Assembly (NCBI GenBank): GCA_030917985.1
Contig: JAUPTR010000156.1
Span: 1 to 32,250, forward strand
Length of the DNA: 32,250 nt
Reading direction: 5' to 3'
Source: Pseudomonadota bacterium
GTDB lineage: Bacteria; Pseudomonadota; Gammaproteobacteria; Burkholderiales; SCOH01
The notes under the pieces were generated by a model that searched no databases, was not told where the DNA came from, and saw nothing but the letters and a program-made list of their open reading frames with translations. A program made the position numbers and the translations under genes. Shown here one piece after another: positions 290-17,247 of the stretch. Positions within the stretch are counted from its first letter, which is position 1. Every line of letters starts with the position of its first letter.

Positions 290-1420
290 TTATTTTCGTG
301 GCAATACCAGCCGTGCCAGCAGCCCGCCTTCCGGACGGTTGAGCAAGGTCAGTTGCCCGCCATGCTGGCGCGCCAGCTCCAGCGCAATCGACAAGCCCAG
401 TCCGGCACCGCCGCTGTGGCGGTTGCGTGATTCTTCCAGCCGCACAAATGGCTCAAACACCGAATGAATACGGTTTTCCGGAATCCCCGGCCCGTGATCA
501 CTGATCTCGATCACCAGTTGTTCGGCGCTATCCTCCACATGGATATCCGCCCGCTGGCCATATTGAATCGCGTTGTCGAGCAGATTGCCGACACAGCGCC
601 GCAGCGCACCGGGCAAGGCCAGCAGCGGTGCGGCCTGGCCGGATACATTGACTTGCTGGCCGGCTTCCAGCGCATCCTCGGCCAGGGTCTCCAGCAGGGC
701 CTGCACGTCCAGCATCTGCCAGCTTTCGCTCTGCGCCGCGCCGCGCAGGTAGCTGAGGGTGGCGTCGAGCATATTCGCCATTTCCTCGATATCCGCCTGC
801 AGCTTGTCGCGATCGAGCGATTCGGCCAGGCGCGTGGTGCGCAGGCGCATGCGGGTCAGCGGTGTGCGCAAATCGTGGGATACGGCGGCGAGAAAACGGC
901 CGCGCTCCTCCAGTTGCAAACGAATGCGCTCCTGCATGCGATTAAAGCCGCGCGCTGCCTCGCGTGCCTCCAGCGGGCCGGTTTCCGCCAGCGGCGGGCT
1001 GCTGAGATTGTCGCCAAGGCGGCCGGCCGCCTGCGCCAGTTGCGCCACCGGCTTCACCAGCTGCCGTGTACCAAACCACAAAGCCAGCAGCACCGCGCCC
1101 AACTGCAGCAGCTGCGCCAGCCACAGCTCGGGCGGCGGGCGGCGCGGTATCTCGCGGGCTTCGCCTGGCGGCGGGCCGGGGTGAAAATCGCGCGCGGGCC
1201 CGGCATCCATTAATGGATCAAAGTCCGGTGGCGCTGGCGGCATACGCTGCGGGCCGCGTTGCCATTCGGCGGGTGGCGGGCCGTGGTGTTTGGGTGGGCC
1301 GGCAAAAAACTTCAGCAGCAGCAGGCCGGTCAGCAGGTGGCTCACCAGCATCGCCGCCAGCACCAATGCAAACAGGCGGCCAAACATCGAATCCGGTAAC
1401 AGGCGTTGCAGGCGGCTCAT
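290..1420 (-). CDS. Two-component sensor histidine kinase (EnvZ/PhoR-like) with a proline-rich periplasmic loop
   Basis: 376-aa ORF with two TM segments and a HAMP-like linker. H-box FLAAVSHDLRTPLTRM, N-box NLLDNAIQYG, G-boxes DHGPGIP and GGAGLGLSIA. Start overlaps the regulator stop by 4 nt (1417-1420). Confidence 0.9.
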   Translation of the reverse strand: MSRLQRLLPDSMFGRLFALVLAAMLVSHLLTGLLLLKFFAGPPKHHGPPPAEWQRGPQRMPPAPPDFDPLMDAGPARDFHPGPPPGEAREIPRRPPPELWLAQLLQLGAVLLALWFGTRQLVKPVAQLAQAAGRLGDNLSSPPLAETGPLEAREAARGFNRMQERIRLQLEERGRFLAAVSHDLRTPLTRMRLRTTRLAESLDRDKLQADIEEMANMLDATLSYLRGAAQSESWQMLDVQALLETLAEDALEAGQQVNVSGQAAPLLALPGALRRCVGNLLDNAIQYGQRADIHVEDSAEQLVIEISDHGPGIPENRIHSVFEPFVRLEESRNRHSGGAGLGLSIALELARQHGGQLTLLNRPEGGLLARLVLPRK

Positions 1421-2139
1421 TTGTGCACTTTCGCGTCGAACAGATACCCCTCACCGCGCACGGTTTTCAGCAAGTTTGGCGCTTTCGGGTCATCGTTGAG
1501 TTTTTGCCGCAGCCGCGATACCAGCAGGTCGATGCTGCGGTCGAATGCCTCGGCGGCCCGGCCGCGTGCTGCATCCAGCAACTGGTCGCGCGTCAGCAAG
1601 CGGCGCGGGCGTTCTAGAAACACCCACAGCAGGCGGAATTCGGCATTCGACAGCGGGATCAGCAAGCCATGCGGGTCGGTCAGCTGCCGCGTCACACGAT
1701 TCACGCGCCAGAGGTCAAAGCCGACTTCATCACCGGCGGCCAGCTCGCCGCTATCGGCCGGCCCGTTGCCGCCGGCACTGCGCCGCAACAGGCTGCGGAT
1801 ACGTGCCACCAGTTCGCGTGGATCAAACGGCTTGACCACGTAATCATCGGCGCCAATCTCCAGCCCCAGCACCCGATCCGCCGCCTCGCCACGCGCGGTG
1901 AGCATGATGATCGGCACATCACACTGCGCCCGCAGCGCCCGGCACAAGGCAATGCCATCCTCGCCCGGCAGCATCAGGTCGAGAATCACCAGCTCAAACC
2001 GCCCCGGCGCAAATGCCTGGCGCATCGCAGCTCCATCGGCCACCGCCGTGGTGTCGATGCCATAACCACGCAGATAATCACCCAGTAAAACGCAAATCTC
2101 GCTGTCGTCATCCACCAGCAACACCCGAATCGGCGTCAT
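1417..2139 (-). CDS. OmpR/PhoB-family response regulator
   Basis: The ORF track gives 1417-2289, but the receiver fold starts at MTPIRVLLVDDD (ATG = complement of 2137-2139). LVILDLMLPGEDG is the phospho-Asp region. The C-terminal winged helix reads RLLWVFLERPRRLLTRDQLL...LRQKL...IKTVRGEGY. Confidence 0.9.
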   Translation of the reverse strand: MTPIRVLLVDDDSEICVLLGDYLRGYGIDTTAVADGAAMRQAFAPGRFELVILDLMLPGEDGIALCRALRAQCDVPIIMLTARGEAADRVLGLEIGADDYVVKPFDPRELVARIRSLLRRSAGGNGPADSGELAAGDEVGFDLWRVNRVTRQLTDPHGLLIPLSNAEFRLLWVFLERPRRLLTRDQLLDAARGRAAEAFDRSIDLLVSRLRQKLNDDPKAPNLLKTVRGEGYLFDAKVHK

Positions 2140-2331
2140 GCCCTGCTCCAGACTTATTGATGCCTGAAGACTAGCGGATTGGCATGCCCGGCGTGTAAGC
2201 GCTTTGTACCAAAACAGATACAGAGGCAAGGTTTGACCAGGATCGATAGTAGCGACAATCCCAAGGCCAATGGCTGGGCGCAACACCAATAATCAAGGGC
2301 AGACACGTGCCGGGCCGGCTATTTTTAATCC

Positions 2332-5859
<3,528 letters not shown>

Positions 5860-5866
5860 AACCATC

Positions 5867-7336
5867 ATGAATCAAGTTACGCGAGAAACCATTCTCATTG
5901 TCGACGACATGCCGGAGAACATCAGCATTCTGGCTGAAATCCTGCGTCAGGACTATCGCGTGACCTTTGCCACCAACGGCCCGGATGCACTTGCCGCTGC
6001 CCGCGAAAAACCCAGGCCGGGGCTGATCCTGCTGGATGTAATGATGCCGGGCATGAGCGGCTACGAGGTGTGCCAGCAATTGAAGACATTGCCGGAAACC
6101 GCCGGCATCCCGGTGATTTTCCTCACCTCCAGGGCGGATGTCAGCAACGAGGAAATCGGCTTGCAGATGGGTGCGGTCGACTACCTGCACAAGCCGTGTC
6201 ACCCGGCTATCGTCCGGCAGCGCGTGCGTAACCACCTGGCCCTGCACAACTACACGCAGGCGCTGGAGCTGCGCGTGCACGAGCGCACCCGCGAGCTGGA
6301 ACAAACCCGCATCGAAATCATCCGCCGCCTGGGGCGGGCAGCAGAATACCGCGACAACGAAACCGGCATGCACGTATTGCGCATGAGCTCGTGCTGCCAC
6401 AAGCTGGCGATTGCTGCAGGGTTGTCAGCGGAGCGGGCCGAATTGTTGCAATTGGCAGCGCCAATGCACGATATCGGCAAAATCGGCATTCCCGACCATA
6501 TCCTGCTGAAACCGGGCAAGCTCGACAGCGACGAGTGGGCCACCATGCAACGCCACGTGGAAATCGGCGCGGAAATCATCGGCGAACACCGCTCCGAACT
6601 GCTGGCGATGGCGCGGCTGGTGGCCCTGACACATCACGAACGCTGGGACGGCCACGGCTACCCGCACCACCTGGCCGGAGAAGACATTCCGATCGAGGGG
6701 CGCATCTCGGCCATCTGCGATGTCTTCGACGCCCTGCTCAGCAAGCGTCCCTACAAGGAGGCCTGGCCGGAACAGCAGGCGGTTGACTTTATCATCTCCC
6801 AGTCCGGCAAGGCTTTTGATCCGGCACTGGTGAATCTGTTTATCGAACTGGTGCCGGAGCTGAACCGGATTCGCAGCCTGTATCTGGATGAACCTGCGGA
6901 GCAGGCGCAGGCACAGAAGCTGGTACAGCTGATCTACGTCAGCGCCGCGCGGCAGGAGATGGATCAGGCGACGCTACTGCAGATACTCGACAGCGCAATC
7001 CGCCATAACACCCGCAACAAACTCAGCGGCATGCTGCTGTATGCCCGCGGCTCCTTCATCCAGGTGCTGGAAGGCAGTGAAACCGCAGTTGCAGAAACCA
7101 TGCGCCGCATCTGCGACGACCCGCGCCATCACGATATCCAAACCCTGACGCAAGATGTCATCAACGAACGCGAGTTTGCCCAGTGGGCCATGGGTTTTCA
7201 TTGCCTGAACCGTGATGACGTGGCAAAACACCCGCATTTCACCCTGTTTCTGGAAAGAGGCTTCGATCCCGCCGACATCAACGCAACGCCCGGCATTGCG
7301 ATGGCTTTGCTGAAACAGTTTGCCAACCAGGCGTAA
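5867..7336 (+). CDS. Response-regulator receiver + HD-GYP phosphodiesterase + C-terminal BLUF domain protein
   Basis: 489 aa. REC aa 8-122 (LILLDVMMPGMSG). HD-GYP aa ~150-330 (HDIGKIGIPDHILLKPGKL; HHERWDGHGYP). BLUF aa 352-445. Starts 7 nt after the hybrid kinase stop. Confidence 0.9.
   Translation: MNQVTRETILIVDDMPENISILAEILRQDYRVTFATNGPDALAAAREKPRPGLILLDVMMPGMSGYEVCQQLKTLPETAGIPVIFLTSRADVSNEEIGLQMGAVDYLHKPCHPAIVRQRVRNHLALHNYTQALELRVHERTRELEQTRIEIIRRLGRAAEYRDNETGMHVLRMSSCCHKLAIAAGLSAERAELLQLAAPMHDIGKIGIPDHILLKPGKLDSDEWATMQRHVEIGAEIIGEHRSELLAMARLVALTHHERWDGHGYPHHLAGEDIPIEGRISAICDVFDALLSKRPYKEAWPEQQAVDFIISQSGKAFDPALVNLFIELVPELNRIRSLYLDEPAEQAQAQKLVQLIYVSAARQEMDQATLLQILDSAIRHNTRNKLSGMLLYARGSFIQVLEGSETAVAETMRRICDDPRHHDIQTLTQDVINEREFAQWAMGFHCLNRDDVAKHPHFTLFLERGFDPADINATPGIAMALLKQFANQA
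6920..7201 (+). other. BLUF (blue-light FAD sensor) domain-coding segment of the 5867-7336 gene
   Basis: LIYVSAA..RHNTRNKLSGMLLY..FIQVLEGS..DDPRHHDI..FAQWAMGF. Tyr357, Asn381, Gln399, Trp440 and Met442 have the same spacing as AppA Y21/N45/Q63/W104/M106. Confidence 0.8.
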
Positions 7337-8133: not shown

Positions 8134-8568
8134 ATGAACAAAGTGAATAACGTTAAGCGCACATTCTCCACCGGTTTCACCTTGCTGGAACTGCTGATCG
8201 CATTGGTCATCATCGGTCTGCTGGTGGGCGTGGTAGCGCCCAATCTGTTCAAAAACGTTGGCAAATCTGAAGTTACCACCGCCAAGCAGCAGATCGAATC
8301 GCTGTCGAAGGCCATCGACCAGTATCGCCTCGACACCGGCCATTTCCCTTCCACCGAACAGGGCCTGGCTGCGCTGAACCAGAAACCAGCCGACGAACCG
8401 AAATGGAACGGCCCGTATCTGAAGAAAGAAGCACCGCTTGATCCGTGGGGCAAGGCCTATATTTACAAGGCGCCGGGCGAGCATGCCAACGATTACGACC
8501 TGAGCTCGCTGGGCAAGGATGGCAAACCAGGTGGAGAAGGTGAAGCCGCCGATCTCGGCAACTGGTAA
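8134..8568 (+). CDS. gspG: Type II secretion major pseudopilin, GspG-like
   Basis: Prepilin leader and cleavage/methylation site ...FSTG|FTLLELLIALVIIGLL. GspG body: AKQQIESLSKAIDQYRLDTGHFPSTEQGLAAL, WNGPYLKK, LDPWGKAYIYKAPGEH..DYDLSSLGKDGKPGGEGEAADLGNW. Confidence 0.92.
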   Translation: MNKVNNVKRTFSTGFTLLELLIALVIIGLLVGVVAPNLFKNVGKSEVTTAKQQIESLSKAIDQYRLDTGHFPSTEQGLAALNQKPADEPKWNGPYLKKEAPLDPWGKAYIYKAPGEHANDYDLSSLGKDGKPGGEGEAADLGNW

Positions 8569-8818: not shown

Positions 8819-10003
8819 ATGCAACAGTTTGAAGTCAAAGCGCTGAAAGCCCAGTCAGTTGTCGTACTGAAACTGGATGCCGCCAGCAGCGACGATGCCC
8901 GCAACCAGGCCACCCAGCAGGGCGTGCGGGTGATCTCGGTGCACGCGCTGCGTCAGGGCTGGATGCCGGCCTGGCGCGCGCAGCGTTTTAATCTGGTGCT
9001 GTTCACGCAGGAGCTGCTGGCGCTGCTGGATGCGGGTCTGTCGCTGATCGAAGCAGTGGAAACACTGGCGGAAAAGGCACACGACGAGAGCCAGGATGTG
9101 CTGCGCAAGCTGACCGAATCGCTGTATCAGGGCCAGTCTCTATCGCAAGCGTTGCAGCATTTTCCGCAGGCTTTCCCCGAGCTGTATGTTGCCAGTGTGC
9201 GCGCCTCGGAAAAAACCGGCGACATCGTGCCGACGCTGCAACGTTTCGTCACTTATCAGCAGCAGGCCGACACGATTCGCAAGCAGATCATCTCGGCGTC
9301 GATTTATCCAGCGGTGGTGTTTGTGGTCGGCATTGTGGTTGCCTTGTTCCTGCTGGTCTATCTGGTACCGAAATTCAGCCGCATTTATGAAGACATGAAC
9401 AGCGACCTGCCCTTTCTCTCGCGCATGTTGCTGAAATGGGGCAGTTTCGCCAGTGACAATATGTCGCTGGTGTTGCTCGGCATCGGCGGCATGACTGCAC
9501 TGGCCATCTACGCCGCCAGCAACGCCCAAGCCCGCGCCCGCGCGCTGACCTTGTTGTGGCGCATCCAGTCGCTGCGCGAGCGCTGGTATCTGGTGCAATT
9601 GTCGCGCCTGTACCGCTCTGCCGGCATGTTGCTGCGTGGCGGCATTCCGGCCGTCACCGCGTTCAGCATGGTTGGCGGCCTGTTGCACCCCACCCTGCGG
9701 CCACGGCTGGACAAGGCGATCAGCCGCATCCGCGAAGGCCAGCCGATTTCACTGGTGATGCAAAGCTGCGAGCTGACCACGCCGGTGGCAGTGCGCATGC
9801 TGCGGGTGGGTGAAAAGAGCGGCAAAATGGGCGACATGATGGAGCGTATCGCGCTGTTCTATGATGAGGACACCGCGCGCTGGGTGGATGTATTCACCCG
9901 CGTGTTTCCGCCTTTGCTGTTACTGATTATCGCGCTGTTCATCGGCACGATTGTGGTGAGTATGTACATGCCGATTTTTGAACTGGCCGGAGGCCTGCAA
10001 TGA
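8819..10003 (+). CDS. gspF: GspF/PilC-family inner-membrane platform protein
   Basis: 394 aa with the duplicated T2SSF repeat architecture and 3 TM segments. N-terminus MQQFEVKALKAQS... is typical of GspF. Stop overlaps the ATG of the next gene (ATGA at 10000-10003). Confidence 0.9.
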   Translation: MQQFEVKALKAQSVVVLKLDAASSDDARNQATQQGVRVISVHALRQGWMPAWRAQRFNLVLFTQELLALLDAGLSLIEAVETLAEKAHDESQDVLRKLTESLYQGQSLSQALQHFPQAFPELYVASVRASEKTGDIVPTLQRFVTYQQQADTIRKQIISASIYPAVVFVVGIVVALFLLVYLVPKFSRIYEDMNSDLPFLSRMLLKWGSFASDNMSLVLLGIGGMTALAIYAASNAQARARALTLLWRIQSLRERWYLVQLSRLYRSAGMLLRGGIPAVTAFSMVGGLLHPTLRPRLDKAISRIREGQPISLVMQSCELTTPVAVRMLRVGEKSGKMGDMMERIALFYDEDTARWVDVFTRVFPPLLLLIIALFIGTIVVSMYMPIFELAGGLQ

Positions 10004-11667
10004 GCCGTATCAGCCTTGGTGATATCCAGGCTGCGCGCCAGACCATGCGCACCAGCGGCGAACCGTTCTGGGATGCCCTGCGCCAGCGCGTGCCATTGCA
10101 GAACGGCGAACTGCTGCGGGCCGTGGGCGAAGCGCTGAAAATGCCGACGCTGGCGATGCGCGAGATGCAGCAACTGACCCCGGCTTTCGACCTGATCGCC
10201 TACGCCGATGCGCTGCAGCGCCAGTGTATTGCCTTCCGCGATGCGCAAGGCGAATTGCTGCCGGTAATCGGCACCCCGTTTGATGCGGCATCAATCCAGT
10301 GGGCAGAAACCCGCCTGCCGGCAGCCGGTATCTGGCATCTGGCCGAGCCGGCGGATATCGTTGCCTATCTCTCCAGTTATGAAGAAACCCAGCGCGCCAT
10401 TGATGGCGTGCTGAATCAGGGCAGCGAAGGCACCGGCCAGAGCGCCAACGTTGAAATCATTTCGCTCGCCAGCATTGCCGAAGACAGCAGTCAGACAGTC
10501 AAGGCGGTCAACTCCACACTCTACGACGCGCTCAAGTCGCTGGCTTCCGACATCCACCTGGAAACCACACCCGGCGGGCTGACGGTGAAATACCGCATCG
10601 ACGGCGTGTTGTGCCACGTTGGCCAGATTGGCGGGCTGGACATGGCGGAGCAGGTGATTTCGCGCCTGAAGGTGATGTCGGAACTGGACATTGCCGAACG
10701 CCGTGTGCCGCAGGACGGGCGTTTCAAGATTTCCGTGAACAACCGCGAAATCGACTTCCGCGTCTCGATCATGCCCAGCCTGTTTGGCGAAGATGCGGTG
10801 CTGCGGGTGCTGGACAAACAATCGCTGGCCGACCAGATGAAAAGCCTGCGGCTGGAAACGCTCGGCTTTGATGCACCCACCGTGGAAATGATGCGCAAGC
10901 TGGCGCAGGAACCTTACGGCATGTTGCTGGTAACCGGCCCGACCGGCTCGGGTAAATCCACCACGCTCTATGCCGCCATTTCCGAAGTCAACAACGGCCA
11001 GGACAAGATCATCACCATTGAAGACCCGGTGGAATACATGCTGCCGGGGGTGCTGCAGATTCCGGTCAACGAGAAAATAGGCCTGACTTTTGCGCGCGGC
11101 CTGCGTTCGATCCTGCGTCACGATCCGGACAAGATTCTGGTGGGCGAGATCCGTGATGCCGAAACCGCACAGATTGCGGTGCAGGCGGCGCTCACCGGCC
11201 ACCTTGTCTATACGACAGTGCACGCCAACAGCGTGTTCGACGTGATCGGCCGCTTCGCCCACATGGGTGTCGACACCTACAGCTTCGTCTCCGCACTCAA
11301 CGGCATTCTGGCGCAACGACTGGTGCGCAAGATCTGCGAACACTGTGCCGAGCCGTATCAGCCAGATCACCAGCTAATGCTCGATTCCGGCCTCGATCCG
11401 GATAAAGTCAGCGACTTCACCTTCCGCCTCGGCCGTGGCTGTGGCCATTGCCGTGGCACCGGCTACAAGGGCCGCAAGGCGCTGGCGGAAATCCTCAAAC
11501 TCAACGACACGCTGCGCGAGCTGATCATCAGCCGCGCCCCGGTCAGCCAGCTGAAAGAAGCGGCGCGCAAGGCCGGCATGCGTTCGCTGCGCGACATTGC
11601 CATCAGCACCGTGCGTAGCGGTCAAACCACATTGCAGGAGATCAACCGTGTTACGTTTGTCTCCTGA
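10000..11667 (+). CDS. gspE: GspE/PilB-family secretion ATPase
   Basis: 555 aa. Walker A GPTGSGKSTT, Asp box IITIEDPVEY, Walker B ILVGEIRD, His box TGHLVYTTVHAN. Tetracysteine zinc motif CEHC...CGHC. Confidence 0.93.
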   Translation: MSRISLGDIQAARQTMRTSGEPFWDALRQRVPLQNGELLRAVGEALKMPTLAMREMQQLTPAFDLIAYADALQRQCIAFRDAQGELLPVIGTPFDAASIQWAETRLPAAGIWHLAEPADIVAYLSSYEETQRAIDGVLNQGSEGTGQSANVEIISLASIAEDSSQTVKAVNSTLYDALKSLASDIHLETTPGGLTVKYRIDGVLCHVGQIGGLDMAEQVISRLKVMSELDIAERRVPQDGRFKISVNNREIDFRVSIMPSLFGEDAVLRVLDKQSLADQMKSLRLETLGFDAPTVEMMRKLAQEPYGMLLVTGPTGSGKSTTLYAAISEVNNGQDKIITIEDPVEYMLPGVLQIPVNEKIGLTFARGLRSILRHDPDKILVGEIRDAETAQIAVQAALTGHLVYTTVHANSVFDVIGRFAHMGVDTYSFVSALNGILAQRLVRKICEHCAEPYQPDHQLMLDSGLDPDKVSDFTFRLGRGCGHCRGTGYKGRKALAEILKLNDTLRELIISRAPVSQLKEAARKAGMRSLRDIAISTVRSGQTTLQEINRVTFVS

Positions 11668-12440: not shown

Positions 12441-12956
12441 ATGGCCCATCTCGATCTCGATTTTGTCCGCACATCGGCCCGCTGGCCGTGGCTGGGCGCC
12501 TGTCTGGCGCTGCTGGCGCTGTTGGCACTGGGCTGGGTCTGGCAACACGGCAACACGCTGGGGCAGCAAATCCGCCAGCTCGATACGCAGCTTGAGCACT
12601 CCCGGCAACAAGTGCGCGAACGCAACAAGCCGGTGGCGGCGGAAGATCCGCAACAACTGGCCGCCGCCTTTGCCCTGCGCCGCCAGTGGCGCACCGACTG
12701 GAATGTATTGTTCGAGGCGCTGGAGCAGGCACAGTTCAAGGGCATTGCGCTGCAGCAAATCGCGCCGGATGCGGCCAAGAGCCAGCTGAAACTGGCCGGC
12801 GAAGCCTTGTCTGAAGCCGATCTGCACGACTATCTGCGACGCCTGCAACAAACCGGCCGCCTGCGCGAGGCGGTGTTGAGCCAGAGCGGCATTGACGAAA
12901 CACAGCCACACAAGCCGATCCAGTTCCAGATTCAGGCCGAATGGGTGCAGCCATGA
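12441..12956 (+). CDS. Bitopic inner-membrane assembly protein, PilN-like (tentative)
   Basis: ATG at 12441, 1 nt after the upstream stop. Short cytoplasmic N-terminus, one TM (WPWLGACLALLALLALGWVW), a coiled-coil segment, then a periplasmic alpha/beta region. This is the PilN/GspL-periplasmic layout. Confidence 0.55.
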   Translation: MAHLDLDFVRTSARWPWLGACLALLALLALGWVWQHGNTLGQQIRQLDTQLEHSRQQVRERNKPVAAEDPQQLAAAFALRRQWRTDWNVLFEALEQAQFKGIALQQIAPDAAKSQLKLAGEALSEADLHDYLRRLQQTGRLREAVLSQSGIDETQPHKPIQFQIQAEWVQP

Positions 12957-13486
12957 GTCAACTGATCTGGATTCTGCAACACTGGCGTAGTTATCTCGGC
13001 GTAGTCGGCCTGGCGGGCTTTAGCTGCCTGTGTCTGGCACTGGTGCTGCTGCTGATGTGGCTGCAACCGCTGCGCCATCAGCAACACACATTGGCCCAGG
13101 ATCTGGCCGCGCTGCAGCGGCCAGACGTGCAAAATCAGCAAAGTGAACGCCAAAGCCTGCGGCTGGCCGATTTCTACCGGCAGTTTCCGCACCTCAACAG
13201 CGCGCCCGACTGGCTGGATCAGATCGACCAGAAGCTGCGCGCGCACAAACTGGTGCTGAAACAGGCCGATTACAAACTGGTGCGCGAACGCAACAGCCCG
13301 CTGCTGCGTTATCAGCTCAATCTGCCGGTGAGCGGCGATTATCTGGAAATCCGCGCCTGCCTGCAGGAACTGCAGCAGAGCATGCCGTTCCTGATCATTG
13401 AAGACGTGACATTGGAGCGCGACAGCACCACACAAACCGTGGTGCAGGCCAAGCTGCGCCTGAGCCTGATGTTTGGAGGCAGCTGA
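12953..13486 (+). CDS. Bitopic inner-membrane assembly protein, PilO/GspM-like (tentative)
   Basis: ATGA overlap with the upstream gene (12953-12956). One TM (YLGVVGLAGFSCLCLALVLLLMWL) followed by ~130 periplasmic aa. Size and topology match PilO/GspM. Confidence 0.5.
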   Translation: MSQLIWILQHWRSYLGVVGLAGFSCLCLALVLLLMWLQPLRHQQHTLAQDLAALQRPDVQNQQSERQSLRLADFYRQFPHLNSAPDWLDQIDQKLRAHKLVLKQADYKLVRERNSPLLRYQLNLPVSGDYLEIRACLQELQQSMPFLIIEDVTLERDSTTQTVVQAKLRLSLMFGGS

Positions 13487-14061
13487 TGCAGAGCAAGCGT
13501 ATCCTGCTGCCGGCACTGGCCATCACTGTCGCTTTGTCCTTGTGGGTAAGCCTGCGCCCGGCGCCCGAAGATGATGTGGAACTGGCACGGCCAAAACGGG
13601 CAGCCAGCACACCGGCCCAGCCGCCAGCCGAAAACCGCAAACCGGCCGGCAACACGGCAGCCAGCAACGCGCCACCGCCAGACAACAGCAATATGCCGCA
13701 GGAATGGCAACTACGGCATGAAGGTGCCAATGCCGCGCAGGTGAACCTGTTTGCCAGCAACACGCCGGCCGCGCCGGTGCTGGTGGATGGAGTGGAAGCC
13801 GGCAAGCCGGCAAAACCGGCCAAGGCGCCCCCGCCCCCGCCACCGATGGCACCACCGCTGCCGCTGCAGTATCTGGGGCGCATGCTCGACGGCAGTGTGG
13901 CGCAACTGTTTGTCAGCCATAACGGCGACAACCTCGCCTTAAAACCGGGCGACACCGTGGCCGGCAGTTACCGGCTTGACAGCATCCAGACCAACCGCGC
14001 GGTATTCACCTACATGCCGCTGAACCAGACGCAAACCATGATTTTCGGGGAACAGCCTTGA
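13486..14061 (+). CDS. Periplasmic Pro-rich linker protein, PilP/GspC-like (tentative)
   Basis: 1-nt overlap with the upstream stop. N-terminal signal/anchor (ILLPALAITVALSLWVSL), long Pro/Ala-rich linker (KPAKPAKAPPPPPPMAPPLP). C-terminal beta-rich module YLGRMLDGSVAQLFVSHNGDNLALKPGDTVAGSYRLDSIQTNRAVFTY, as in secretin-binding PilP/GspC HR domains. Confidence 0.45.
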   Translation: MQSKRILLPALAITVALSLWVSLRPAPEDDVELARPKRAASTPAQPPAENRKPAGNTAASNAPPPDNSNMPQEWQLRHEGANAAQVNLFASNTPAAPVLVDGVEAGKPAKPAKAPPPPPPMAPPLPLQYLGRMLDGSVAQLFVSHNGDNLALKPGDTVAGSYRLDSIQTNRAVFTYMPLNQTQTMIFGEQP

Positions 14062-16391
14062 AGCACACAAAACTGACAATATGCTGGGTGTTGATCGCCA
14101 GCCTGCTCGGGGGCTGCGCCAACGACCTCAAATATCGCGATGCCAAACGCCTGCAGGCCGAAAACAAGCCGGAAGAAGCGATGCAGGTACTGGAATCGCT
14201 GACCTTCGAATACCCACAGCACAGCGAATACAAATCGGCGCTGGCCACGCTGCAGGAGCGCCAGTCGAACCGCCTGCTGGCCGAGGCCGACAACTACCGC
14301 ATCACCGAAGATTTTGCCAACGCCGCCATCACCTATAACAAGGTGCTGAAGTTCCAGCCGGGCTCGCCACGCGCCCGTGCCGGCCTGGAAAACATCGAGC
14401 GCGACCGCCGCCATGCCAGGCTGCTGGCCGAAGCCGACACGGCCATGCGCAAAAAGGATTACGACGCAGCGCTCGACGAACTGAACCAGATACTCGACGA
14501 AAACCCGGCACACGCCAAGGCCAAAAGCCTGAAGCGACAGATCGACAACACCCGCAACCGCGAAGCCATCGCCAGCAGCCCGCTGAAAGCCGCACTGAAA
14601 AAGCCGATCACGCTGGAGTTCCGCAATGCACCGATCCAGTCGATTTTCGAGGTGATTTCGCGCAGCGCCGGGGTCAGCTTCATTTTTGACCGCGACTTGC
14701 GCAGCGACCTGAAAGCCACGTTGTTTGCCCGCAACACATCGGTGGAAGATGCCATCAATGTGCTGCTGGCCACCAATCAGCTGGAAAAGAAAATCCTCAA
14801 CGACTCCACCCTGCTGATCTACCCGAACCAGCCGGCAAAGCAGAAGGAATACCAGGATCTGGTGGTGAAGAGTTTCTACCTCGGCAACGCCGACCCGAAA
14901 CAGACACTCAACCTGATCAAGACCGTGGCCAAAACCCGCGATGTGTATATCGACGAACGCCTCAATATGCTGGTGATGCGCGATACGCCGGAAGCCATCC
15001 GGGTTGCCGAAAAACTCATCGCTGCGCAGGATCTGGCCGAGCCGGAAGTGGTGCTGGAAGTGGAAGTGCTGGAAGTGTCCACCGCCTTCCTGATGAACCT
15101 CGGCCCGCAGTTTACTGACAAAGTCAGCGTCAGCGTCAACCCCACCAGCAATGCCGACGGCAGCACCAGCAGCGGCAAGCTGACCTGGGATCAGGTAAAG
15201 AACTTCAACAGCGGTATGGTCAGCGTCAATGTCGGCGATCCGGCAGCGGTGTTCCACATGAAAAACACCACCGGCGACACCAATGTGCTGGCCAATCCGC
15301 GCATTCGGGTAAAAAGCCGCGAAAAAGCCAAGGTGCATGTGGGCGACAAGGTGCCGGTGATCACCACCACCACCAACGGCACCAGCGGTGCCATTTCCGA
15401 GAACATCAGCTACCTCGATGTGGGCGTGATGCTGGAAGTGGAACCGCAGGTGTATCTCGACAGCGATGTCGGCATCAAGGTGGGGCTGGAAGTCAGCAAC
15501 ATCGTCAAGGAAATCACCTCGAAAAACGGCCTGGTGGCCTATCAGGTGGGTTCGCGCAAGGCCAACACCGTGCTGCGCCTCAAAGACGGCGAAACCCAGG
15601 TGCTGGCCGGCCTGATCAGCAAGGTCGAGCGCGAAAATGCCGACCGCCTGCCCGGCCTCGGCAATATCCCCGGCCTGGGGCGCCTGTTCTCACGCGTCAG
15701 CAACGACAACTCCAAATCCGAGATCGTTTTGCTGATCACGCCGCGCATTGTGCGCACGCTGGCACTGCCGGCGGCGGCCGACAGCGAATTCATGTCCGGC
15801 ACCGAAGCCGATATCAGCACCCGGCCGCTGCGCCTCAAACCGGCGGCGGCGGTGGATGTGCGTGGTGCCGATGCCGGCAGTGGCACAGTGGCATCCGGCA
15901 TGCAGGCTGGCAGTACCGGCCAGTACATGAGCCCGCAACTGCTGCCACCGGAAAGCCCGCAACCGTTTAACCCGCCGCAAGCCGCTGCCGGCGCCACAGC
16001 GCTCAAGGTATCGCTCAGTTCGCCGCAGCGGGCGCGGGTTGGCAGCGAATTCAGCGTCAGCGTAATCGCTGAAGTCGATACCCCGGCATCTGCCGTGACA
16101 ACCGACGTGATCTATAACCCGGCTTATCTGGAAATGACCAGCGCACGCGCGGGTGACCTGAGCCGCAACGCACAGTTCGACAGCAAGAATGCCCCCGGCC
16201 GGGTGATGCTGAGTGTGCAGAAACAGGATGGCCTGCGTGGCCGCGGCCCGCTGGCCACGCTCACCTTCCGCGTCAAGGAAAAAACCAATCTGCCGCTGTG
16301 GCTGGGCATCGGCCAGGTACAGGCCAGCTCGCTGCAAGGCACCGAAATGCCGGTATCAGCGGCCGAGCCGCGCAGTCTGGAAGTGGAATGA
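14058..16391 (+). CDS. Outer-membrane secretin (GspD/PilQ family) lipoprotein with N-terminal TPR region and C-terminal cohesin-like domain
   Basis: TTG start at 14058 overlaps the upstream TGA. Lipobox LLGG|C (Cys20, nt 14115-14117), then TPR-like helical repeats aa ~25-170. N-domains: ITLEFRNAPIQSIFEVISRSAGVSFIFD...; VVKSFYLGNADPKQTLNLIK...LVMRDTPEAIRVAEKLI. Secretin core: VLEVEVLEVS...NVLANPRIRVKSREKAKVHVGDKVPVITTT...LPGLGNIPGLGRLF...SEIVLLITPRIV. A Pro/Ala linker precedes the cohesin-like module. Confidence 0.9.
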   Translation: MKHTKLTICWVLIASLLGGCANDLKYRDAKRLQAENKPEEAMQVLESLTFEYPQHSEYKSALATLQERQSNRLLAEADNYRITEDFANAAITYNKVLKFQPGSPRARAGLENIERDRRHARLLAEADTAMRKKDYDAALDELNQILDENPAHAKAKSLKRQIDNTRNREAIASSPLKAALKKPITLEFRNAPIQSIFEVISRSAGVSFIFDRDLRSDLKATLFARNTSVEDAINVLLATNQLEKKILNDSTLLIYPNQPAKQKEYQDLVVKSFYLGNADPKQTLNLIKTVAKTRDVYIDERLNMLVMRDTPEAIRVAEKLIAAQDLAEPEVVLEVEVLEVSTAFLMNLGPQFTDKVSVSVNPTSNADGSTSSGKLTWDQVKNFNSGMVSVNVGDPAAVFHMKNTTGDTNVLANPRIRVKSREKAKVHVGDKVPVITTTTNGTSGAISENISYLDVGVMLEVEPQVYLDSDVGIKVGLEVSNIVKEITSKNGLVAYQVGSRKANTVLRLKDGETQVLAGLISKVERENADRLPGLGNIPGLGRLFSRVSNDNSKSEIVLLITPRIVRTLALPAAADSEFMSGTEADISTRPLRLKPAAAVDVRGADAGSGTVASGMQAGSTGQYMSPQLLPPESPQPFNPPQAAAGATALKVSLSSPQRARVGSEFSVSVIAEVDTPASAVTTDVIYNPAYLEMTSARAGDLSRNAQFDSKNAPGRVMLSVQKQDGLRGRGPLATLTFRVKEKTNLPLWLGIGQVQASSLQGTEMPVSAAEPRSLEVE
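16000..16388 (+). other. Cohesin-like beta-sandwich module at the secretin C-terminus
   Basis: ALKVSLSSPQRARVGSEFSVSVIAEVDTPASAVTTDVIYNPAYLEMTSARAGDL...GRVMLSVQKQDG..GRGPLATLTFRVKEK. This follows the cohesin type-I pattern (V.V....G..F.V.V......A..F.L.YD...L). Confidence 0.6.
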
Positions 16392-16864
16392 CAGCGCCCC
16401 GGCCACGCGGCTTCACCCTGATCGAAATTCTGGTCACACTGGCGATTCTCGGCATTCTCGCCAGCATTGCCGTGCCACTGGTGCAGATCAACGCGCAACG
16501 CGCCAAAGAGGTAGAGCTGCGCGCCGCACTGCGCGAGATTCGCGGCGGTATCGATGCCTACAAACAGGCCGTGGACGATGGCCGGGTGCCCAAAGCCGCC
16601 GACGAAAGCGGGTATCCGAAAAAGCTGGAAGACCTGAGCAAGGGCGTGGAAGACCAGAAATCGCCGAGCAAGCAGAAAATCTACTTCCTGCGCCGCATCC
16701 CGCGTGATCCGATGGCACCCTCCGGCGGCAGCGATAGCGACAGCTGGGGCCAGCGCAGCTATAAAAGCCCGCCAGACGATCCCAAAAGCGGCGACGATGT
16801 CTACGACGTGTATTCACGCTCGGCGGCCAAAGGCCTCAACGGCGTACCCTACCGGGAATGGTAA
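16388..16864 (+). CDS. Pseudopilin with prepilin-type N-terminal cleavage/methylation site (GspG-like paralogue 1)
   Basis: ATGA overlap with the secretin stop. MTAPRPRG|FTLIEILVTLAILGILASIAVP. GspG-like helix AKEVELRAALREIRGGIDAYK. C-terminus ...DVYDVYSRSAAKGLNGVPYREW. Confidence 0.85.
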   Translation: MTAPRPRGFTLIEILVTLAILGILASIAVPLVQINAQRAKEVELRAALREIRGGIDAYKQAVDDGRVPKAADESGYPKKLEDLSKGVEDQKSPSKQKIYFLRRIPRDPMAPSGGSDSDSWGQRSYKSPPDDPKSGDDVYDVYSRSAAKGLNGVPYREW

Positions 16865-16866
16865 GC

Positions 16867-17247
16867 ATGCCAGATCCACGCAAAGCCGGTTTCACCCTGA
16901 TTGAACTGCTGGTGGTGATGGCCATCATCGCCACCCTGCTCACCATTGTTGCCCCCCGCTACATGGGCAGTATCGACCGCAGCAAGGAAACCGCACTCAA
17001 GGAAAACCTCAACACCCTGCGCCAGAGCATCGACAAATATTACGGCGACAACGGCCAGTATCCGGCCACGCTGGATGCGCTGGTCGAAAAACGCTACATC
17101 CGCCAGGTGCCGCTCGACCCGATCACCGAGCGTAACGACAGCTGGGTGACAAGCCCCCCGCCCGACAAGGATCAGACCGGTGTTTATGATGTACACAGCG
17201 GCGCCGCCGGCAAAGCCAGCGATGGACGGCCTTATGCGGAATGGTAA
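16867..17247 (+). CDS. Pseudopilin with prepilin-type N-terminal cleavage/methylation site (GspG-like paralogue 2)
   Basis: MPDPRKAG|FTLIELLVVMAIIATLLTIVAP; KETALKENLNTLRQSIDKYYGDNGQYPATLDAL; C-terminus GVYDVHSGAAGKASDGRPYAEW. The ATG at 16867 is preferred, but the in-frame ATG at 16858 is possible. Confidence 0.85.
   Translation: MPDPRKAGFTLIELLVVMAIIATLLTIVAPRYMGSIDRSKETALKENLNTLRQSIDKYYGDNGQYPATLDALVEKRYIRQVPLDPITERNDSWVTSPPPDKDQTGVYDVHSGAAGKASDGRPYAEW

What the first reader, a model, noticed from the sequence alone, without database searches (positions are those of the whole stretch)
5867..7336. REC + HD-GYP + C-terminal BLUF in one polypeptide: candidate light- and phosphorylation-gated c-di-GMP phosphodiesterase
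Seen in sequence:
- A receiver domain (Asp57 in LILLDVMMPGMSG).
- An HD-GYP domain with both signature blocks intact (HDIGKIGIPDHILLKPGKL; HHERWDGHGYP).
- A BLUF signature at aa 352-445 (nt 6920-7201): LIYVSAA..RHNTRNKLSGMLLY..FIQVLEGS..DDPRHHDI..FAQWAMGF. Tyr357/Asn381/Gln399/Trp440/Met442 are spaced exactly like the AppA photocycle residues Y21/N45/Q63/W104/M106.

Established knowledge: BLUF is a FAD blue-light sensor. It is known fused to EAL domains (BlrP1, YcgF/BluF) and adenylyl cyclases (PAC/bPAC), or stand-alone (PixD, BlrB). REC-HD-GYP is the RpfG layout.

Inference: I know of no characterised BLUF-coupled HD-GYP enzyme. A BLUF placed C-terminal to its presumed effector is the reverse of the usual sensor-first order. 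The protein would integrate a phosphorelay and light on a single c-di-GMP hydrolase.
Basis: partly seen in the sequence, partly recalled or inferred. Interest (0 to 1): 0.8.

Follow-up and report, generated by a model that had tools for sequence, protein, structure and literature searches.

The report
Receiver–HD-GYP enzyme with C-terminal BLUF sensor
One intact, conserved bacterial gene joins a phosphorylation-receiver domain, an HD-GYP enzyme domain of the kind that destroys the biofilm signal c-di-GMP, and a complete blue-light (BLUF) flavin sensor. Published censuses do not record BLUF joined to HD-GYP, so this is a credible but untested candidate for an HD-GYP enzyme controlled by both light and a phosphorelay.

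Summary
ORF 5867..7336(+) encodes 489 aa with full-length Pfam hits to Response_reg (1.2e-25), HD_5/HD-GYP (1.5e-30) and BLUF (1.9e-30, model positions 1-92 of 92).

Every functional residue checked is intact and invariant in seven homologues (59-86% identity):
- REC: D13, D14, D57, K109.
- HD-GYP: E165, H169, H201-D202, H230, H256-H257, D285 and the GYP motif.
- BLUF: Y357, N381, Q399, W440 and M442, aligned without gaps to AppA Y21, N45, Q63, W104 and M106.

The BLUF part is a whole PixD/BlrB-type short BLUF protein. A roughly 10-residue, low-confidence linker joins it to the C-terminus of an ordinary RpfG-type REC-HD-GYP. It is under purifying selection (dN/dS about 0.2).

The exact protein is indexed in 56 blocks of the assembly collection, so it is not a chimera. 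A hybrid kinase (MASE3-PAS-HisKA-HATPase-REC-Hpt) sits directly upstream.

The fusion is rare. I found eight 90%-identity clusters, and the only named source is a Chitinivorax MAG. A 2022 census states that BLUF is not found with HD-GYP. My own searches were not exhaustive.

Verdict: a new variant of known kinds. Function is inferred only.

The parts
2332..5859 (+). Hybrid sensor histidine kinase (1175 aa): MASE3 membrane sensor, two PAS domains, HisKA, HATPase_c, REC and Hpt. It is the presumed phosphodonor for the REC domain of the next gene.
   Evidence: Pfam hits. Its stop codon lies 7 nt before the ATG at 5867. The same pairing occurs in the Chitinivorax MAG L002, where the two genes overlap by 4 nt. 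Hpt or REC-Hpt genes lie upstream in the P0005 and P0006 loci.
5867..7336 (+). Complete REC-HD-GYP-BLUF gene (489 aa plus stop codon).
   Evidence: The identical protein is indexed in 56 blocks of the assembly collection.
5891..6226 (+). Receiver (REC) domain, aa 9-120. Phospho-acceptor D57, acidic pair D13/D14, T87 and K109.
   Evidence: Pfam Response_reg E=1.2e-25. Residues checked. D13, D14, D57 and K109 are invariant in 7 homologues; position 87 is T or S.
6227..6340 (+). Long helical connector (S-helix-like) between REC and HD-GYP. It belongs to one continuous predicted helix, aa 113-161.
   Evidence: AlphaFold2 model, helix H113-161. Galperin & Chou note that an S-helix commonly precedes C-terminal HD-GYP domains.
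6341..6880 (+). HD-GYP phosphodiesterase domain, aa 159-338. Metal ligands E165, H169, H201, D202, H230, H256, H257, D285; GYP loop G264-Y265-P266; HDIGKIGIPDxILLKPGKL block.
   Evidence: Pfam HD_5 E=1.5e-30. 4mcw E=9e-56 with all ligands aligned. Invariant columns. Foldseek match to 4mcw, 4r8z and 9rbz.
6881..6919 (+). Short variable linker, aa 339-351. It consists of the ancestral C-terminal tail of REC-HD-GYP proteins (Y-x-D-x-P) plus about 8 extra residues.
   Evidence: Mean pLDDT is 58 for residues 341-350, the lowest internal block. The linker has the lowest amino-acid identity of any segment of the protein. BLUF-less homologues end at this tail.
6920..7201 (+). BLUF core, aa 352-445 (beta1-alpha1-beta2-beta3-alpha2-beta4-beta5). 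Photocycle residues Y357, N381, Q399, W440, M442; flavin-site residues R420 and H421.
   Evidence: Pfam BLUF E=1.9e-30, full length. Ungapped alignment to AppA. Residues invariant in 7 fused homologues and in 114 stand-alone relatives, apart from R420 in 108 of 114. Predicted topology.
7202..7333 (+). C-terminal helical cap of the BLUF module, aa 446-489. It is the part that short BLUF proteins use to talk to partner proteins.
   Evidence: Predicted helices 449-454, 456-464, 468-472 and 477-488. Stand-alone BLUFs of about 140 aa align end to end, including this cap. The BLUF part of the model aligns with whole TePixD, SyPixD and BlrB chains (about 139-145 aligned columns; target-normalised TM mostly 0.81-0.85). 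dN/dS is 0.13.

Best explanation
The gene encodes an RpfG-type response-regulator c-di-GMP phosphodiesterase (REC, S-helix, HD-GYP) that has a complete PixD/BlrB/PapB-type short BLUF photoreceptor tethered to its C-terminus.

Two inputs converge on the catalytic domain from opposite ends.

1. Phosphorelay input. The adjacent MASE3-PAS hybrid kinase passes phosphate along the route His, Asp, Hpt to D57. This acts through the long REC-to-HD-GYP helix, as in other REC-HD-GYP enzymes.

2. Light input. Blue light excites the flavin held by Y357, N381 and Q399. This rearranges strand beta5 (W440/M442) and the C-terminal helices. The linker is short and flexible, not a rigid helix. The BLUF module therefore most likely works by docking on, or releasing from, the HD-GYP domain of its own or the partner subunit. 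This resembles BLUF acting on EAL in BlrP1, or PapB acting on PapA, and it changes c-di-GMP hydrolysis.

The net effect would be that c-di-GMP turnover depends on both light and the kinase signal.

What is shown: domain identity, intact catalytic and photocycle residues, conservation, purifying selection, rarity of the fusion, and the operon partner.

What is inferred: flavin binding, the photocycle, c-di-GMP as substrate, the docking mechanism, and the sign of regulation. I guess activation by light, because every BLUF-linked phosphodiesterase in Table 1 of PMC8846402 is listed as activated by blue light.
For: - Three full-length domain hits.
- The HD-GYP part is closest to PmGH 4mcw (9e-56). 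All eight metal ligands are present, including the third-metal Glu (E165), where PA4781 has Pro.
- BLUF residues align without gaps to AppA Y21, N45, Q63, W104 and M106.
- All these residues are invariant across seven homologues down to 59% identity.
- dN/dS between the window and the Chitinivorax MAG gene is 0.19 for BLUF, 0.14 for HD-GYP and 0.09 for REC.
- The AlphaFold2 model has mean pLDDT 91.3 and the canonical BLUF topology plus helical cap. The linker block has mean pLDDT 58.
- The BLUF part of the model matches whole PixD and BlrB chains in Foldseek.
- The nearest BLUF relatives are stand-alone 139-146-aa proteins that align end to end.
- BLUF-less REC-HD-GYP homologues (about 70% identity) stop exactly where the linker starts.
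- The hybrid kinase with REC and Hpt is conserved immediately upstream.
- BlrP1 and PapB-PapA are precedents for BLUF control of a c-di-GMP phosphodiesterase through the C-terminal helices (PMC8846402).
- Rec-LOV-GGDEF enzymes are a precedent for integrating phosphorylation and blue light in one c-di-GMP enzyme (PMC13501900).
Against: - There are no biochemical data for any member.
- The relative placement of BLUF and HD-GYP is not established. pTM is only 0.65, only 7-8 sequences carry both domains, and model coordinates and PAE were not available to me.
- No unfused 'REC-HD-GYP followed by short BLUF' gene pair was found among 160 loci of the closest BLUF relatives. There is therefore no independent genomic evidence that these two modules work together.
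- HD-GYP substrate specificity (c-di-GMP, cGAMP or pGpG) cannot be read from sequence alone.
- The organism appears to be a non-phototrophic betaproteobacterium, and no other light-related gene was seen in the window.
Confidence: 0.6

Rival explanations
1. The BLUF module acts on the receiver domain and not on the catalytic domain. As PixD binds the response regulator PixE in the dark and releases it in light, the tethered BLUF would mask or expose REC. That would gate phosphotransfer from the Hpt domain, or REC dimerisation. Light would then control whether the phosphorelay signal gets through (AND-type logic).
For: The BLUF module is structurally a PixD-type short BLUF. PixD-PixE is an established BLUF-REC partnership (my own knowledge, not tested here). 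A REC domain is present in the same chain. The flexible linker would allow BLUF to reach REC in a dimer.
Against: PixE is a PatA-type regulator, and no PATAN domain was found. The REC protein downstream in L004 has only an N-terminal REC domain. The few residues shared by fused proteins but rare in BLUF-less relatives lie mainly in HD-GYP (C176, V231, L291, E327, R334, L338) and less in REC (I11, A90).
Confidence: 0.15
2. The BLUF module is a light-dependent protein-interaction output that recruits or releases a third protein, as in YcgF/BluF-BluR or BlsA. The REC-HD-GYP part is a conventional phosphorylation-controlled phosphodiesterase whose own activity does not respond to light.
For: Short BLUF proteins typically signal through protein-protein contacts. 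The fused BLUF keeps the same conserved C-terminal cap (PGxAxExLxxFA) as the stand-alone proteins. The stand-alone relatives sit in unrelated gene neighbourhoods.
Against: No conserved candidate partner gene lies next to the fused genes. The downstream genes differ between the window, L002 and L004. Keeping a covalent fusion down to 59% identity argues for coupling within the same protein.
Confidence: 0.15
3. The BLUF domain is photochemically inert, or serves as a redox, flavin or temperature sensor, or as a structural appendage.
For: No experimental data exist. The host looks like a chemoheterotroph.
Against: All photocycle and flavin-site residues are invariant in the fused proteins and in 114 stand-alone relatives, apart from R420 in 108 of 114. 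dN/dS is about 0.2. Degenerate domains normally lose such residues.
Confidence: 0.07
4. The three-domain ORF is an artefact: an assembly chimera, or a sequencing frameshift that merged two genes.
For: One related fragment (P0121) does look chimeric.
Against: The identical 489-aa protein is indexed in 56 blocks of the collection. The six places shown (ENA, JGI and an NCBI MAG) have identical neighbours. Two metagenome contigs are 99.7-99.8% identical at the DNA level. Seven diverged homologues keep the same reading frame and junction.
Confidence: 0.01

Closest known systems
RpfG / RpfC (Xanthomonas): the REC-HD-GYP response-regulator family (COG3437), including PA4781 (PDB 4r8z)
   Same: The layout is the same: N-terminal REC, a helical connector and HD-GYP, with all catalytic residues present. 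A hybrid histidine kinase with REC and Hpt domains is encoded alongside. The closest BLUF-less relatives are about 70% identical over aa 1-344.
   Different: This protein carries an extra 150-aa C-terminal BLUF module. The kinase input is MASE3 plus PAS domains; to my knowledge RpfC senses DSF through a different membrane input domain, which I did not test. Unlike PA4781, this protein keeps the third-metal Glu (E165), so it resembles PmGH (4mcw) at the metal site.
BlrP1 (Klebsiella) and BldP: BLUF-EAL blue-light-activated c-di-GMP phosphodiesterases
   Same: A BLUF flavin sensor is covalently linked to a c-di-GMP phosphodiesterase. Signalling probably runs through beta5 and the C-terminal helices to the catalytic domain of a dimer (PMC8846402).
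   Different: The catalytic domain is HD-GYP and not EAL, which is an unrelated fold and chemistry. BLUF is C-terminal, not N-terminal. A REC input is also present. BLUF sequence similarity to BlrP1 is weak (E about 1e-6, against 1e-16 for AppA and PixD).
PapB-PapA (Rhodopseudomonas palustris) and PixD, BlrB: short stand-alone BLUF proteins that regulate partners in trans
   Same: The BLUF module here is a whole short BLUF protein (core plus two-helix cap). The closest sequence relatives are 139-146-aa stand-alone proteins, and Foldseek matches whole PixD and BlrB chains. PapB controls a c-di-GMP phosphodiesterase through its C-terminal helices.
   Different: Here the BLUF is fused in cis to its presumed target, and that target is an HD-GYP enzyme and not an EAL enzyme.
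Rec-LOV-GGDEF dual-sensor diguanylate cyclases (LaRldC; Fuchs & Winkler 2026, PMC13501900)
   Same: A single c-di-GMP enzyme integrates receiver phosphorylation and blue light.
   Different: That family uses a LOV sensor placed between REC and the output domain, and the output is synthesis (GGDEF). Here the sensor is BLUF, it is placed after the output domain, and the output is hydrolysis (HD-GYP).

Membership tests
BLUF domain (Pfam PF04940) | Full-length match to the family HMM above the curated threshold | tested here: met
   105.3 bits against a 25-bit cutoff, E=1.9e-30, model positions 1-92 of 92.
BLUF domain (Pfam PF04940) | Photocycle residues: Tyr (AppA Y21), Gln (Q63), Asn (N45), and Trp/Met on beta5 (W104/M106) | tested here: met
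   Y357, Q399, N381, W440 and M442 in an ungapped alignment to AppA. They are invariant in 7 fused homologues and in 114 stand-alone relatives.
BLUF domain (Pfam PF04940) | Beta-alpha-beta-beta-alpha-beta-beta ferredoxin-like fold | tested here: met
   The AlphaFold2 secondary structure is E352-361, H367-383, E387-393, E396-404, H405-417, E421-432, E443-446. Foldseek matches PixD, AppA and BlrB. This is a prediction, not a solved structure.
BLUF domain (Pfam PF04940) | Binds flavin and shows a ~10-nm red shift under blue light | not testable with these tools
   Requires purified protein and spectroscopy.
HD-GYP c-di-GMP phosphodiesterase (RpfG family) | HD_5/HD HMM match, HD dyad, HHExxDGxGYP motif and the full set of metal ligands | tested here: met
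   HD_5 scores 106.6 bits against a 27.2-bit cutoff. E165, H169, H201, D202, H230, H256, H257, D285 and G264-Y265-P266 align to PmGH 4mcw and are invariant.
HD-GYP c-di-GMP phosphodiesterase (RpfG family) | N-terminal receiver domain with a phospho-acceptor Asp | tested here: met
   Response_reg scores 90.3 bits. D13, D14, D57, T87 and K109 are present.
HD-GYP c-di-GMP phosphodiesterase (RpfG family) | Hydrolyses c-di-GMP | not testable with these tools
   Requires an enzyme assay. The best NCBIfam hit (NosR-family c-di-GMP phosphodiesterase) scores 161.8 bits, below its 400-bit cutoff.
Short (stand-alone) BLUF proteins: PixD, BlrB, PapB type | BLUF core followed by a C-terminal helical cap of about 40-50 residues | tested here: met
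   Predicted helices span 449-488. The module aligns end to end with 139-146-aa proteins. Foldseek aligns about 139-145 columns with whole PixD and BlrB chains, with target-normalised TM mostly 0.81-0.85.
Short (stand-alone) BLUF proteins: PixD, BlrB, PapB type | Encoded as an independent protein of about 140-150 aa | tested here: not met
   Here it is fused in frame behind REC-HD-GYP.
BlrP1/BldP-type BLUF-EAL phosphodiesterases | EAL catalytic domain C-terminal to BLUF | tested here: not met
   There is no EAL hit. The catalytic domain is HD-GYP and lies N-terminal to BLUF.

The most novel reading that the evidence does not exclude
The fusion is a 'Rosetta stone'. It would reveal that the abundant stand-alone short BLUF proteins of Rhodocyclales, Chromatiales and related proteobacteria regulate HD-GYP phosphodiesterases in trans, as an HD-GYP counterpart of PapB-PapA. 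It may also have arisen more than once.

Three observations hint at this:
- Neither the REC-HD-GYP tree nor the BLUF tree supports a single clade of fused proteins (0/100 and 10% bootstrap).
- The two fused subgroups each sit beside different stand-alone BLUFs in the BLUF tree.
- Allochromatium warmingii has a short BLUF gene followed 80 nt later by an HD-GYP-like gene.

If true, blue-light control of HD-GYP enzymes would be widespread but so far invisible to domain-architecture censuses.
Probability: 0.15. Interest if true: 0.75.

Novelty: new variant of a known kind. Interest (0 to 1): 0.58.

Why it matters
- Every light-regulated c-di-GMP phosphodiesterase listed in the 2022 census table is an EAL enzyme (PMC8846402). 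HD-GYP enzymes are far less characterised (Galperin & Chou). I found no photoreceptor-linked HD-GYP described in the papers searched.
- A BLUF-HD-GYP enzyme would extend light control to the second, unrelated class of c-di-GMP phosphodiesterases.
- It would offer a natural test case for how one catalytic domain integrates signals arriving from both of its ends: phosphorylation through an N-terminal helix and light through a C-terminally tethered sensor.
- It could also give an optogenetic tool. PmGH-like tri-metal HD-GYPs are reported to take c-di-GMP all the way to GMP (my own knowledge).
- The limits are that it is built from well-known modules by ordinary domain shuffling, it occurs in a narrow uncultured lineage, and nothing has been measured.

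Tried and rejected
- **BLUF-only word-index searches.** These returned almost only stand-alone BLUFs and never the known positives P0001-P0007. I therefore do not use them as a census of long proteins with a C-terminal BLUF.
- **Search of 1.84 billion 50%-identity representatives with the HD-GYP-end-plus-BLUF query.** I re-scanned the best 150 hits with the window's own domains. None has both HD-GYP and BLUF; the '2-stretch' hits did not contain BLUF. The fused family itself is also missing, presumably because it is hidden behind a BLUF-less representative. This search is therefore only weak evidence of rarity.
- **GTDB scan with the single protein.** It found nothing.
- **Profile scans of GTDB genomes and of metagenomes.** Only the best 80 loci of each scan were inspected, giving 1 and 2 fused loci.
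- **Rosetta-stone test.** I looked for an unfused REC-HD-GYP gene upstream of close short BLUF genes. There was none in 160 loci. The only nearby cases were one reversed-order pair (L033) and two distant opposite-strand cases (L059, L119).
- **PixE/PATAN idea.** The REC protein downstream in L004 has no PATAN domain.
- **Link to the neighbouring type II secretion / pilus cluster through a c-di-GMP-binding MshEN ATPase.** The MshEN hit is below threshold (22.6 bits against 23.1) and the RLGxx...Q motif is absent. The adjacency is also not conserved in L002.
- **Neighbour-joining trees to decide one fusion event or two.** The result is unresolved.
- **Promoter and terminator scan.** Nothing exceeded the shuffled background.
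- **Assembly-chimera hypothesis.** Rejected.
Full report
**1. Observation**

The window has a single 489-codon ORF at 5867..7336(+). Pfam gives three independent domain hits, all well above threshold:
- Response_reg, aa 9-120, E=1.2e-25.
- HD_5, aa 159-321, E=1.5e-30 (with HD, E=1.5e-17).
- BLUF, aa 352-443, E=1.9e-30, covering all 92 positions of the model.

A sequence search of the PDB agrees. The middle domain is closest to the tri-iron HD-GYP c-di-GMP phosphodiesterase PmGH (4mcw, 9e-56), then PA4781 (4r8z) and V-cGAP3 (5z7c). The N-terminus matches PleD, MtrA and PhoP receivers. The C-terminus matches the AppA, PixD and BlrB BLUF domains (1e-15 to 1e-13).

**2. Functional residues**

- REC: D13, D14, D57, T87 and K109 are present.
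- HD-GYP: the residues aligned to the PmGH metal ligands are E165, H169, H201/D202, H230, H256/H257 and D285. The GYP loop (G264-Y265-P266) and the HDIGKIGIPDxILLKPGKL block are also present. At the position of E165, PA4781 has Pro. On this criterion the enzyme resembles the tri-metal PmGH type.
- BLUF: the alignment to AppA has no gaps over about 100 residues. It places Y357, N381, Q399, W440 and M442 on AppA Y21, N45, Q63, W104 and M106. R420 and H421 (the DPRH motif) are also present.
- All of these residues are invariant in an alignment of the window protein with six homologues at 59-86% identity. Position 87 is T or S.
- The five BLUF residues and H421 are invariant in 114 stand-alone relatives; R420 is kept in 108 of 114.

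**3. It is a real, selected gene**

The identical protein is indexed in 56 blocks of the assembly collection. The contigs read come from ENA, JGI and an NCBI MAG, and the six places shown all carry the same neighbours. Two metagenome contigs are 99.7-99.8% identical at the DNA level.

dN/dS between the window and the Chitinivorax MAG gene is as follows:

| Segment | dN/dS |
|---|---|
| REC | 0.09 |
| HD-GYP | 0.14 |
| BLUF core | 0.22 |
| BLUF C-terminal cap | 0.13 |

The BLUF part evolves somewhat faster but is clearly under constraint.

**4. Anatomy of the fusion**

The AlphaFold2 model (107-sequence alignment) has mean pLDDT 91.3 and pTM 0.65. It shows:
- a canonical receiver domain;
- one long helix (aa 113-161) running into the all-helical HD-GYP domain;
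- a dip in confidence at the linker (mean pLDDT 58 for residues 341-350);
- a beta-alpha-beta-beta-alpha-beta-beta BLUF core (352-446) followed by four short helices (449-488).

Foldseek aligns the C-terminal module with whole chains of the short BLUF proteins TePixD, SyPixD and BlrB (about 139-145 aligned columns; target-normalised TM mostly 0.81-0.85).

The closest sequence relatives of the module are stand-alone BLUF proteins of 139-146 aa. Sources include Azonexus, Thiodictyon and Zoogloea, at 44-55% identity. They align from their start codon (M-x-L-x-Q-L-I-Y-V-S) to their last helix.

Conversely, the closest BLUF-less REC-HD-GYP proteins are about 70% identical over aa 1-344. They terminate at or just after the Y-x-D-x-P tail that forms the start of the linker here.

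The simplest reading is that a complete short BLUF gene was joined to the natural 3' end of an RpfG-type gene.

**5. Context**

The upstream gene (2332..5859) is a 1175-aa hybrid kinase with MASE3, two PAS domains, HisKA, HATPase, REC and Hpt. Its stop codon is 7 nt before the ATG.

The same pair, overlapping by 4 nt, is present in the Chitinivorax MAG. The more distant members have REC-Hpt or Hpt genes upstream. BLUF-less relatives also follow large PAS-rich sensor kinase genes. This is the RpfC/RpfG design of a His-Asp-His-Asp relay.

Downstream genes are not conserved between members. In the window they are a PEMT-like methyltransferase and a type II secretion / pilus-like cluster. I found no other light-related gene in the window.

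**6. How common is it?**

In the full-length search, only the top seven 90%-identity clusters carry BLUF. The other 113 hits listed are REC-HD-GYP proteins without BLUF. One further fragment (P0121) has HD_5 plus BLUF. The only named source is 'MAG: Chitinivorax sp.', an unplaced betaproteobacterial genus.

Among the best 80 BLUF-encoding loci in 185,579 GTDB species genomes, one is fused: that same MAG. Among the best 80 in the metagenome collection, two are fused, and both are the window's own population. None of the best 150 representatives from 1.84 billion clusters combines the two domains.

Each of these searches has blind spots:
- The word-index BLUF searches never returned the known positives.
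- The representative library hides the family.

I therefore claim 'rare and phylogenetically narrow', not 'unique'.

Independent literature agrees:
- Randall et al. [quoted passage not shown]
- The Galperin & Chou HD-GYP architecture census has no occurrence of BLUF, LOV, 'photo' or 'flavin'.
- None of the 32 papers containing both 'BLUF' and 'HD-GYP' has both terms in its title or abstract.

**7. One origin or two?**

Neighbour-joining bootstraps give 100% support for the window/P0002-P0004 subgroup. They do not support a single clade of all fused proteins, either in the REC-HD-GYP tree (0 of 100) or in the BLUF tree (10%). In the BLUF tree the two fused subgroups sit beside different stand-alone BLUFs.

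Against independent origins, the junction has the same position and nearly the same length in all members. The fused proteins also share residues that are rare in relatives:
- C176: 7 of 7 fused, against 8% of 85 BLUF-less relatives.
- L291: 7 of 7 fused, against 11%.
- N448: 6 of 7 fused, against 4% of stand-alone BLUFs.

This question is unresolved.

**8. Mechanism (inference)**

Phosphorylation of D57 by the adjacent relay should act through the long connector helix, as in other REC-HD-GYP enzymes.

The BLUF module cannot use a rigid helical transducer, because the linker is short, variable and of low predicted confidence. The known precedents are BlrP1, where BLUF C-terminal helices press on the EAL dimer interface, and PapB-PapA, where a short BLUF regulates an EAL protein through its C-terminal helices. 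Both point to light-dependent docking of the BLUF sheet and cap onto the catalytic domain, in cis or across a dimer.

I guess activation by light, because every BLUF-linked phosphodiesterase in Table 1 of PMC8846402 is listed as activated by blue light. The logic for combining the two inputs is open. The Rec-LOV-GGDEF enzymes behave as OR-type gates (PMC13501900).

The rivals are:
- BLUF acts on REC, in the manner of PixD-PixE.
- BLUF is a separate light-dependent interaction output.
- BLUF is a non-photic domain.
- The ORF is an assembly artefact. This one is excluded.

**9. Verdict**

The protein belongs to both the BLUF and the RpfG-type HD-GYP families by every sequence-level criterion that I could test. 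The combination and the domain order are a new variant of known kinds and are uncharacterised.

The finding is of solid interest to specialists in photoreceptors, c-di-GMP signalling and optogenetics. It is not a new principle.

Noticed in passing
L033:2995-4447 (Allochromatium warmingii DSM 173, NZ_FNOW01000013.1): A stand-alone 140-aa BLUF gene (2995..3417) is followed 80 nt later, on the same strand, by a 316-aa gene (3497..4447). That gene has a marginal HD_5 hit (28.4 bits against a 27.2-bit cutoff) and an 'HHETPDGQGYP' motif. This may be a two-gene BLUF plus HD-GYP-like pair. No homologue of the second gene was found next to BLUF in the other loci.
   Followed up: partly
P0121 (259-aa JGI metagenome fragment): Its C-terminal ~190 aa are nearly identical to the Chitinivorax MAG protein P0003, starting at 'PYKEPWPEEKAIAF'. 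Its N-terminal HD-GYP piece belongs to a different HD-GYP protein (HHERWDGSGYPRGLSG...). It is either a recombinant or an assembly chimera at the conserved motif.
   Followed up: no
(search behaviour, not the window): The two BLUF-only word-index searches never returned the known C-terminal-BLUF proteins P0001-P0007. The 50%-identity representative library also lacks the fused family (best hit 151 bits). Counts of this architecture from these tools are lower bounds.
   Followed up: partly
window:8134-17247 (+): A type II secretion / MSHA-pilus-like cluster lies here. It has a GspG-like pseudopilin (8134..8568), GspF (8819..10003), a GspE ATPase (10000..11667), a T2SS-M-like gene (12941..13486), a 777-aa secretin with unusual extra TPR, STN and Cohesin domains (14058..16391), and a second pseudopilin (16858..17247). 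The ATPase has a sub-threshold MshEN hit but lacks the RLGxx...Q c-di-GMP-binding motif.
   Followed up: partly
window:25807-27066 (-) and window:20451-22151 (+): About 18 kb from the phosphodiesterase there is a 419-aa protein with a C-terminal GGDEF diguanylate cyclase domain and an unassigned ~250-aa N-terminus. A FapA-family protein is also present. No link to the BLUF gene was established.
   Followed up: no
window:3136-3172 compared with L089:1223-1253: A metagenome contig 99.8% identical to the window aligns in two pieces that overlap by 37 nt on the window and are separated by 29 nt on the contig. This implies an in-frame insertion or duplication of about 66 nt inside the MASE3 kinase gene in that population.
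   Followed up: no
window:6647-6673 (aa 261-269 of the REC-HD-GYP-BLUF protein): The window protein reads DGHGYPHHL. The cluster representative P0001 is listed at 100% identity (rounded) but reads DGLGYPHGL. This is two-residue microvariation right at the GYP loop within one population. The other members have H, K or T at the first position.
   Followed up: no
window:290-2289 (-): A HAMP-HisKA-HATPase kinase (290..1420) and an OmpR-type regulator (1417..2289) are transcribed divergently from the MASE3 kinase. The same arrangement occurs in the Chitinivorax MAG L002, so synteny extends upstream but not downstream of the BLUF gene.
   Followed up: partly
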